In this document: in pieces, positions 39,375 to 39,410 of the stretch
How the letters are laid out: each line of letters opens with the position of its first letter
Position numbering within the stretch: the first letter of the stretch is position 1
From: Malacoraja senta
Lineage: Eukaryota
Direction: 5' to 3'
DNA: 64,000 bases
Assembly (NCBI GenBank): GCA_038087875.1
Contig: CM075989.1
Coordinates: 7,008,001-7,072,000, forward strand
Program-made: the position numbers and the translations under genes
Notes under the pieces: generated by a model
The model's input: the letters and a program-made list of their open reading frames with translations, nothing else
What the model was told of the DNA's origin: nothing
Databases searched by the model: none

Positions 39375-39410
39375 GGGTCTGAAGAAGGGTCTCGACCCGA
39401 AACGTCACCC
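39375..39410 (+). ncRNA. Minimal type I hammerhead ribozyme motif in a ~100-bp PLE mini-element (~39373-39472)
   Basis: GGGT-CTGAAGA-A-GGGTC-TC-GACCC-GAAA-CG-TC-ACCC: 4-bp stem I, 5-bp stem II, complete core, palindromic ACGT helix III. Confidence 0.7.

What the first reader, a model, noticed from the sequence alone, without database searches (positions are those of the whole stretch)
39375..39410. Complete minimal hammerhead ribozyme motif carried by a short Penelope-derived element
Seen: GGGU/CUGAAGA/A/GGGUC-UC-GACCC/GAAA/CG/UC/ACCC folds into a type I hammerhead with stem I GGGU:ACCC, a 5-bp stem II, the complete core, a GUC cleavage triplet and a palindromic ACGU helix III. At least 15 related copies occur on both strands (e.g. 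656, 13945, 20564, 33088, 45060, 54985), in sense orientation to the PLE ORF at 327-545. Known: PLEs carry minimal hammerheads with palindromic helix III that are thought to act as dimers, and an extra A after A9 occurs in a natural viroid hammerhead. Inference: this region is densely seeded with potential self-cleaving RNA sites that could cut or pair any transcript crossing it.
Basis: partly seen in the sequence, partly recalled or inferred. Interest (0 to 1): 0.7.

Follow-up and report, generated by a model that had tools for sequence, protein, structure and literature searches.

The report
Skate Penelope retroelement's minimal hammerhead ribozyme
The motif is a minimal hammerhead ribozyme sequence inside one of dozens of short, decaying copies of a Penelope-like jumping gene in DNA that looks like a skate's or ray's; it likely served the parent element rather than host genes, so it is a new member of a known class, and the copies' shared start just before the ribozyme likely marks where the element's RNA begins.

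Summary
Observation real. 39375-39410 holds a complete minimal type I hammerhead: core, extra A after A9, ACGU palindrome, GUC ending 39406. It sits in a ~97-bp insertion from a Penelope-like element (PLE) with RT, CX4CX2C linker and GIY-YIG, probably Neptune; nearest named proteins are from Leucoraja erinacea.

Corrections:
- Helix II is 4 bp plus a tetraloop.
- The 4-bp helix I occurs in 1 of 26 copies; the family has 2 bp.
- Only 7 of 26 copies keep the whole motif.
- The core is no better kept than the flank (89.9 vs 89.4%); losses follow CpG decay.
- The hammerhead fold is predicted at about 2% or less.

Host regulation is unsupported. PLE hammerheads, tails and inverted pairs are known.

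New lead: 16 of 43 pieces start within -10..+9 of the core, before the cut site, at an initiator-like word, and three related families have a TATA-like word 36-41 nt before C3. Short copies may be run-off cDNAs of the uncut 5' leader (about 45%). Density is about 110 intact motifs per Mb in this window. New member of a known kind.

The parts
39377..39473 (+). Short PLE insertion holding the finding: starts at the ribozyme's 5' edge, ends at the first 3'-end cluster (+95), no tail, no target-site duplication found; 87 of 89 positions match the family majority
39375..39378 (+). Helix I 5' strand; only the last two letters are family sequence, the first two G are peculiar to this copy (junction chance, added G, or rare variant)
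39379..39386 (+). Hammerhead core C3-A9 plus the extra A typical of PLE hammerheads
   Evidence: PMC4209133
39387..39398 (+). Helix II, 4 bp with a 4-nt loop
39399..39406 (+). G12-A15.1, ACGU palindrome in place of helix III, GUC triplet; predicted cut after 39406
39407..39410 (+). Helix I 3' strand
39442..39457 (+). Conserved hairpin before the first 3'-end cluster (91.6% of cells paired in 26 copies); candidate part of the RT initiation structure (inferred)
325..785 (+). PLE 3' end: endonuclease C-terminus (stop 544-546), C-rich spacer, hammerhead at 655 (palindrome broken), tail
25410..25910 (-). PLE 3' end: GIY-YIG endonuclease, C-rich spacer with GC box, intact hammerhead (25477-25508, helix I 2 bp)
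54885..55984 (-). Longest PLE piece: RT C-terminal part, internal deletion, endonuclease, spacer, intact hammerhead (54986-55017), tail
42300..42821 (-). PLE 3' end of another subfamily: endonuclease end, 225-nt spacer, decayed hammerhead at 42422, tail
51144..51582 (-). Older PLE piece with decayed cysteine linker and endonuclease; no hammerhead found behind it
13945..13978 (+). Intact hammerhead copy (helix I 3 bp) in a tailed short insertion with a 16-bp target-site duplication
1625..1656 (-). Intact hammerhead copy (GUU triplet, helix I 2 bp), 16-bp target-site duplication
33086..33117 (+). Intact hammerhead copy (GUU, helix I 2 bp); nearest intact same-strand copy upstream of the finding
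45060..45091 (+). Intact hammerhead copy (GUC, helix I 2 bp); nearest intact same-strand copy downstream of the finding

Best explanation
39375-39410 is the minimal type I hammerhead sequence in the terminal repeat of an abundant Penelope-like retroelement (likely Neptune clade), here in a short promoter-less insertion that is likely inert and decaying, while in the parent element's RNA it is predicted to cut weakly after GUC, likely only when the element's protein or a second copy helps it fold. SHOWN: the motif; its place 100-225 nt behind the stop of the RT-endonuclease gene; two 3'-end clusters (+84..100 and +119..131, the PLE tail signature); head-to-head inverted pairs; CpG-led decay; a pile-up of 5' ends at the ribozyme's 5' edge. 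INFERRED from the anole PLE (PMC11167929): reverse transcription starts inside the RNA at those two sites on uncut RNA, and cleavage is protein-assisted and not needed for insertion. INFERRED HERE, about even odds: transcription starts at the A of the initiator-like word 3 nt before C3. The short copies would then be run-off cDNAs of the capped, uncut leader, and helix I is 2 bp because the RNA has only three letters before the core. A cut would remove about 32 capped nt from the element's own RNA.
For: PLE LINK: 4 of 5 endonuclease ends in the window are followed by the motif. Relatives are 800-950-aa RT + GIY-YIG proteins, 94 of 120 with the CX2-5CxxC linker. Of 8 closely related loci from other hosts (L006-L012, L014), 7 carry the same hammerhead design behind the gene; L011 has it only as an inverted piece.

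NEUTRAL DECAY: core = flank. The CpG pairs at C11.1-G12 and C15.2-G16.2 survive in 16 and 11 of 26 copies. A competing pairing of GAAGG with the downstream CCUUC dominates the predicted folds.

UNCUT TEMPLATE: 4 of 43 pieces start within 3 nt of the cut site, 3 of them at inversion junctions; 16 of 43 start at -10..+9 (one copy moved to the long class by hand; P=0.002 against the next 61 nt). Five target-site duplications end at -10, -6, -5, -3 and 0. In public contigs, loose ends with mixed flanks sit at 25508-25509 in 3 of 4 runs.

PROMOTER-LIKE WORDS: YYANWYY lies at -5 from C3 in 8 of 10 long copies, and GC/GT boxes at -12..-32 in 6 of 10. A TATA-like word lies at -36..-41 in 3 of 4 related families (about 1% per family by chance).
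Against: No cleavage, RNA start or RNA end was observed; only contigs could be laid. The 5' pile-up is spread over about 15 nt, the window for it was chosen after seeing the data, 4 of the 16 are inversion junctions, and shorter pieces are under-detected. The same word also reads as a 3' splice site, and D. virilis Penelope has its start about 125 nt upstream with an intron ending 5 nt before C3. One of 4 related families (L009/L012) has no TATA word and a 6-bp helix I. An extra G before the start is only 5 of 11 (P=0.08). Helix II shows no two-sided changes in the window. Among 22 copies selected for an intact 5' core, the non-CpG core is better kept than the flank (95.0 vs 90.5%, P=0.027), but that selection is circular. 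No full-length element was available; clade assignment rests on the linker only.
Confidence: 0.78

Rival explanations
1. The copies are working self-cleaving or pairing sites that act on host transcripts crossing the region.
For: This copy has the best helix I of 26 and a complete core. 7 complete motifs lie in 64 kb. The family is plentiful in contigs of runs guessed to be RNA.
Against: No conservation above flank and no strand bias. The fold is predicted at 2% or less. Partners lie about 6 kb away and would pair through 4 bp. Two random G would give the 4-bp helix in at least one of 16 short-start copies with probability 0.56. Published minimal PLE hammerheads do not cut as monomers and cut poorly as dimers; 8 of 9 Xenopus dimers did not cut. 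No reads began or ended at the anole site.
Confidence: 0.05
2. The C-rich spacer is a spliceosomal intron from the stop codon to the base before U2.1, as in D. virilis Penelope; 5' ends pile up there because reverse transcriptase stalls at the bound or structured 3' splice site.
For: GT at the stop in 4 of 5 endonuclease ends (AT in the fifth), 71-88% pyrimidine before CAG in 8 long copies, and the same layout in L009/L012. In D. virilis the intron ends at helix I, which is also 2 bp.
Against: The predicted joint 25507-25609 is not among the 15 of 166 joints shown. The one near miss (25508-25605, one contig, one run) lacks GT..AG ends. No donor has G at +5 and two lack G at -1. The tract is C-rich rather than U-rich. 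L006-type elements have no GT at the stop but a TATA word. Splicing would leave the same four letters before C3, so it would not mend helix I.
Confidence: 0.17
3. The short unit is its own non-autonomous, retrozyme-like family, amplified from tandem or circular RNA by the PLE protein.
For: A head-to-tail joint (25508 back to 25422) is seen in 4 of 4 runs. Copies at 18493 and 18380 lie 113 nt apart. Retrozymes derive from PLE repeats and occur in one chondrichthyan. Short copies outnumber gene-linked ones by about 8 to 1.
Against: The tandem joint rests on 1, 1, 1 and 4 contigs. Copies begin before the cut site, not at it. Short and gene-linked copies share the same subfamily letters. No tandem array of the unit appears among the 43 hits. 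Retrozyme hammerheads are canonical, with longer helix I.
Confidence: 0.15
4. In this lineage the hammerhead is a relic even in the source elements: helix I has shrunk to 2 bp and the sequence is kept only as part of the leader that the protein binds.
For: 2-bp helix I in the gene-linked copies; competing fold favoured by 5-14 kcal/mol in the six other intact copies; ribozyme-dead anole RNA still inserts in vitro; Naiad PLEs spread without one.
Against: Subfamily changes shown in helix II keep pairing (U-G for C-G, U-G for U-A), the loop varies, and no subfamily-wide change hits the core. 2-bp helix I has published precedent in Culex, Drosophila and Oikopleura. The anole ribozyme cuts only with protein.
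Confidence: 0.25

Closest known systems
Minimal hammerheads of metazoan PLEs (Cervera and de la Pena 2014, PMC4209133), closest in design to the Acropora digitifera Neptune motif
   Same: Type I, extra base after A9, G10.1-C11.1, palindrome in place of helix III, NUH triplet, position in the terminal repeat, most copies single and dispersed.
   Different: No cartilaginous fish among the 56 motifs of Fig. S3. Helix I is 2 bp where the listed vertebrate motifs have 3-6. Density in this window would extrapolate far above the 4,000 (coelacanth) and 9,000 (X. tropicalis) reported.
Poseidon element of Anolis carolinensis (PAc; Frangieh et al. 2024, PMC11167929)
   Same: Hammerhead upstream of two 3'-end sites about 35 nt apart (tail); copies made from uncut RNA.
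   Different: Different clade (no cysteine linker expected); the PAc ORF starts inside helix II. The ORF start here is unknown and nothing was assayed.
Penelope of Drosophila virilis (PMC2377424; PMC4209133)
   Same: 2-bp helix I with an AG just before it; promoter in the terminal repeat.
   Different: There a proven 75-nt intron ends at helix I and the start is 46 nt before the intron; here splicing got no support and the words fit a start at the ribozyme's edge.
Non-LTR retrozymes (PMC7229834; bioRxiv 10.64898/2026.07.22.740005)
   Same: Short, non-coding, type I hammerhead, PLE-derived; reported from one chondrichthyan (mean unit 363 bp).
   Different: Retrozymes are tandem arrays of 170-400-nt units with abundant circular RNA; these are dispersed 95-135-bp monomers and inverted pairs, several with 8-16-bp target-site duplications.
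Adineta vaga Pen2a terminal repeat (PMC3846280)
   Same: TATA-like and initiator-like words in the terminal repeat; tail; inverted repeats.
   Different: The passages seen do not relate the start to a hammerhead or to short run-off copies.

Membership tests
Type I hammerhead, minimal PLE form | Core CUGAnGA ... GAAA ... NUH | tested here: met
Type I hammerhead, minimal PLE form | Helix II closed by G10.1-C11.1 with an extra base after A9 | tested here: met
   4 bp plus tetraloop; 90% of cells paired in 26 copies, one-sided changes only
Type I hammerhead, minimal PLE form | Palindrome at 15.1-16.1 in place of helix III | tested here: met
   ACGT 39402-39405; its CG is kept in 11 of 26 copies
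Type I hammerhead, minimal PLE form | Helix I of 3-5 bp (2 bp in a few published members) | tested here: inconclusive
   4 bp in this copy only; family 2 bp; 2-bp precedent
Type I hammerhead, minimal PLE form | Self-cleavage after H17 (as dimer or with protein) | not testable with these tools
   Fold predicted rare; only contigs available
Rfam hammerhead families | Score at or above a family's threshold | tested here: not met
   0 hits in the window; no hammerhead model at E up to 10 in 38900-39900; expected for a motif without helix III
Endonuclease-bearing PLE | One ORF with RT and C-terminal GIY-YIG | tested here: met
   RT C-terminal part and endonuclease in order at 55118-55984, frameshifted and deleted; Pfam GIY-YIG E 0.006, below cut-off; full-length relatives
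Endonuclease-bearing PLE | Hammerhead in the repeat behind the ORF | tested here: met
   4 of 5 endonuclease ends
Endonuclease-bearing PLE | Optional 30-40-bp tail and head-to-head inverted 5' copies | tested here: met
   3' ends at +84..100 (22 of 43) and +119..131 (13 of 43); 8 inverted pairs
Endonuclease-bearing PLE | Full copy flanked by two repeats (partial tandem) | not testable with these tools
   No genome held; no full copy in the window
Neptune clade | CX2-5CxxC linker between RT and endonuclease (shared with Nematis) | tested here: met
   Present in P0002-P0004, the nearest skate and ray proteins; decayed at 51436-51582; deleted in the 55016 copy
Neptune clade | Placement in an RT tree with named references | not tested
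   No named references were returned; only Neptune and Poseidon were found in vertebrates by Li et al.
Non-LTR retrozyme | Tandem array with a hammerhead in consecutive units | tested here: not met
   Finding is a monomer; one loose pair at 18380/18493; head-to-tail joints in few contigs
Non-LTR retrozyme | Abundant circular monomer RNA | not testable with these tools
   Contigs only

The most novel reading that the evidence does not exclude
In Neptune-type PLEs the promoter starts transcription right at the hammerhead's 5' edge, so the ribozyme is a switch that removes the cap from the element's own RNA. Internal initiation of reverse transcription 95-130 nt downstream then mass-produces promoter-less run-off copies. 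That would explain a SINE-like family without a SINE master, and would make skate genomes the richest known in hammerhead motifs (roughly 0.7-4.5 x 10^5 intact, if this window is typical).
Probability: 0.42. Interest if true: 0.58.

Novelty: new member of a known kind. Interest (0 to 1): 0.32.

Why it matters
The locus itself is an ordinary decaying transposon copy. The family matters for two reasons. First, the role of PLE hammerheads is still open (PMC8557442, PMC11167929). A family with tens of thousands or more copies whose 5' and 3' ends are sharply placed records both the RNA start and the reverse-transcription start in the genome, so the life cycle can be tested by counting ends. Second, if the start lies three bases before the core, cleavage would decap the element's RNA, a simple testable function. 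No description in cartilaginous fish turned up in searches, but repeat libraries (Repbase, Dfam), Lunse et al. 2017 and the supplements of Li et al. 2026 could not be seen and may already list it.

Tried and rejected
- Rfam: no hit.
- Own genome: not held, so all copy statistics come from one 64-kb window.
- Collection scans for the motif: 0 with the first pattern in metagenomes; 5 loci with a looser one, none of them the skate element; 0 in viral and prokaryote contigs. The PLE protein scan of viral contigs gave 0 of 40 candidates.
- Sequencing runs: no RNA holder listed. Four of 24 runs were laid; all are contigs, and 'RNA' for X1, X2 and X8 is a guess. No place where many molecules begin or end (table 6). 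Tables were cut: 40 of 127 letter differences, 15 of 166 joints and 24 of 1,503 loose ends shown.
- Splice hypothesis: no matching joint among those shown; kept as a rival.
- Host gene: 286 of 400 frames scanned (those of 45 aa or more). Only sub-threshold hits, plus one above-threshold ALKBH8_N hit at 21825-22016 that I read, from recall, as a LINE remnant. The Cep192, CP2 and zf-DNL hints were translated and not accepted. Short exons would be missed.
- Folding stability is not above shuffles for the motif (z 0.07-0.42), and above them for 1 of 4 whole short units.
- Dimer model: the double hammerhead scores -17.3 kcal/mol against -29.1 for a helix-II-swapped duplex (nearest-neighbour energies ignore the core's tertiary contacts).
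- Cap-derived G: 5 of 11, not significant.
- Earlier scan notes: none.
- Lunse et al. 2017 not held.

Full report
SETTING. The window is repeat-rich vertebrate DNA: 45% of it is repeated within the window itself. The nearest named proteins to its endonuclease pieces come from Leucoraja erinacea (82% and 72% identity), then Mobula and Hypanus, so the host is most likely a skate or ray; I did not fix the species. No genome is held. Positions written +n or -n count from U2.1 (39378 in the finding's copy) unless C3 is named.

THE OBSERVATION. The 25-nt core has 18 matches at up to 3 mismatches, none in 100 shuffles. BLAST finds 43 pieces of the element, 26 of which I aligned as spanning the core; very diverged or 3'-cut pieces such as 4944, 23417, 34942 and 53743 were left out. 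A descriptor built on structure alone returns 9 hits at 8 loci; 7 loci have helix I of 2 bp or more, against 0.01 per shuffle. Rfam sees nothing.

CORRECTIONS TO THE ANATOMY. Helix II is 4 bp with a 4-nt loop, since a 2-nt loop cannot close (established). Helix I GGGU:ACCC belongs to this copy only: 4 bp in 1 of 26, 3 bp in 1, 2 bp in 13, less in 11; pair 2.3-1.3 forms in 5 of 26. Copies that run on upstream have CAGU there. This copy's homology begins at -1 or -2, so the extra G may be flank or junction letters; two chance G among 16 short-start copies has probability 0.56. A rare CGG variant cannot be excluded (13947, 30972).

WHAT CARRIES IT. Five endonuclease ends lie in the window. Four are followed, 100-225 nt after the stop and in the same sense, by the hammerhead; the fifth is interrupted. 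The copy at 55118-55984 also holds the end of the RT. Full-length relatives are 800-950-aa RT + GIY-YIG proteins; 94 of 120 and the nearest skate and ray proteins have the CX2-5CxxC linker, which marks Neptune and Nematis (PMC8557442, passages). Li et al. found only Neptune and Poseidon in vertebrates, so Neptune is likely; no tree was built. Other PLE marks are present: 3' ends cluster at +84..100 (22 of 43) and +119..131 (13 of 43), and 8 head-to-head inverted pairs occur. Of 11 loci with related proteins in bacterial bins, apparently host DNA, the 8 closer ones were informative: 7 carry the same design behind the gene, with helix I of 3-6 bp, and L011 has it as an inverted piece. Of the 3 distant ones, L015 has a variant motif and L013 and L016 showed none within the contig.

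ARE THE COPIES WORKING? Probably not. Core letters match the majority in 257 of 286 cells and flank letters in 1268 of 1418 (P=0.92; non-CpG P=0.56). The only significant contrast (P=0.027) comes from a subset picked on the core, which is circular. Losses sit at CpG: G12 is A in 8 of 26, and the palindrome's CG survives in 11 of 26. Strands are even. At the level of source elements there is a hint of constraint: subfamily changes shown in helix II keep pairing, in the window and in public contigs (25494 and 25490; 40 of 127 rows shown). Two-sided changes in helix II are absent, however, and the whole-structure covariation (13 of 500 shuffles) is weak for related sequences. Folding favours a pairing of GAAGG with the downstream CCUUC. 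The hammerhead fold takes 0.2-2% in this copy and under 0.1% in the six other intact ones; a designed double hammerhead is 12 kcal/mol above a swapped duplex. This fits the literature. A minimal Schistosoma motif did not cut as monomer and cut poorly as dimer (PMC4209133). The anole ribozyme cut only with its protein, was dispensable for insertion in vitro, and left no read ends in RNA-seq (PMC11167929). No host exon was recognised in 286 of 400 frames, so whether any host transcript crosses the site is unknown.

WHERE THE COPIES BEGIN. Nine of 43 pieces run on upstream (four to the endonuclease), 16 start at -10..+9, 6 at +10..26, 4 at +27..33 (the cut is +28/+29; three of these four are inversion junctions) and 8 further in. 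I moved 6953 to the long class because it has an internal deletion. Target-site duplications of 8-16 bp in 5 of 26 copies end at -10, -6, -5, -3 and 0. In contigs laid on 25380-25980 (8,621, 6,663, 2,845 and 129,585 records in X1, X2, X8, X19), loose ends with unrelated flanks (agreement 0.33-0.38) stand at 25509 in X1 and X2 and 25508 in X19, that is -2 and -1. X8's rows there show another subfamily's upstream sequence. So most templates were uncut, and the 5' end is not random.

TWO READINGS OF THE WORD BEFORE THE CORE. As a 3' splice site it would end an intron from the stop codon, as in D. virilis, where an intron at 416-491 ends 5 nt before C3 at 496. GT at the stop and a pyrimidine tract fit, but the predicted joint is not among the 15 of 166 shown, and the one near miss has the wrong ends. 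As an initiator (consensus YYANWYY, recalled) it matches at -5 from C3 in 8 of 10 long copies across four subfamilies. GC/GT boxes (recalled motifs) lie at -12..-32 in 6 of 10; these copies share ancestry and are not independent. Three of four related families have a TATA-like word at -36 to -41 from C3 (L006/7/8/10 with CCAAT at -63; L007:772; L014), about 1% each by chance. With the usual 30-nt spacing (recalled) this puts the start 6-11 nt before C3. By eye, 10 of the 56 published motifs have TCAGT or TCATT in the 15 nt before C3, five of them TCATT, which cannot be a splice site (no control run). TATA and initiator words in a PLE repeat were already noted for Adineta (PMC3846280). Combining a start at the ribozyme's edge with internal initiation 95-130 nt downstream predicts exactly these short, promoter-less copies and a helix I limited to 2-3 bp. 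An extra G from the cap, known for full-length L1 (PMC11702581, one passage), is hinted at: 5 of 11 in the window (P=0.08), and the first loose letter at 25509 in X1 and X2. This chain is inference; I give it a little under even odds.

SCALE. Seven complete motifs in 63.8 kb is about 110 per Mb (rough range 31-204). On a 2.2-Gb skate assembly (PMC10115646) that would be about 2.4 x 10^5, against 126,247 in axolotl (PMC7229834) and about 4,000 and 9,000 in coelacanth and X. tropicalis. This rests on one window, different descriptors and an assumed host.

COMPARISON AND VERDICT. It works like, and by every sequence feature testable here is, a minimal PLE hammerhead; the Acropora Neptune motif has the same design. 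It fails the tandem test for a retrozyme. No cartilaginous fish is in the 2014 list, and searches found no description. Li et al. report retrozymes in one unnamed chondrichthyan. New member of a known kind; interest 0.32.

PAPERS SEEN. PMC4209133: main text parts 1-2 of 4, supplement file 2 parts 1-2 of 3, file 1 not searchable. bioRxiv 10.64898/2026.07.22.740005: parts 1-3 of 5, supplements not seen. PMC11167929: parts 1-2 of 4. Passages only: PMC8557442, PMC2377424, PMC3846280, PMC7229834, PMC10115646, PMC11702581, PMC6765202, PMC6155905. Lunse et al. 2017 was seen only as cited in PMC6765202. Unseen supplements and repeat libraries may already hold this family.

Noticed in passing
L005:14-38 (-) and L002:667-691 (+): An unrelated repeat in two metagenome contigs carries the same hammerhead core and helix II as the skate motif but other flanks; L005 has a 4-bp helix I and a palindromic helix III, L002 looks decayed.
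   Followed up: partly
L006:2615, L007:2704, L008:2062, L010:1991: All four copies of one PLE family have C in place of U4 in the core (CCGACGA), so the variant is in the source element.
   Followed up: no
L006-L016: Eleven PLE-protein loci lie in three bacterial genome bins of the GTDB set; they look like animal host DNA mis-binned as bacterial.
   Followed up: partly
window 13748/13807, 18418/18553, 20501/20563, 23912/24016, 30035/30134, 32629/32783, 32939/33072, 34748/34802: Eight head-to-head inverted pairs of the element; some junctions fall at a GAAGG/CCTTC microhomology, and joints near 25498-25466 recur in public contigs.
   Followed up: partly
window 25490 and 25494, runs X1, X2, X8, X19: The helix II variants differ in share between runs of different organisms (for 25490: about 11% in X1 and X2, 57% in X8, 43% in X19), suggesting lineage-specific subfamily bursts (contig depth is a poor measure).
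   Followed up: no
window 36230-36400: A 38-bp unit repeated four or five times inside the spacer of the copy at 36222.
   Followed up: no
window 55960-56090: Short tandem repeats at the 5' break of the longest PLE piece.
   Followed up: no
window 63175-63417 (-): Weak zf-DNL similarity (E 6e-4 among 286 frames), possibly a decayed DNLZ-like piece or chance.
   Followed up: partly
window 41373-41693, 48056-48844, 59340-59878, 21825-22016, 51895-52203: Fragments that look like the 3' ends of LINE reverse transcriptases (read from the translations; labels recalled, Pfam gave no RT hit).
   Followed up: no
window 7993-8192: 200-base assembly gap.
   Followed up: no
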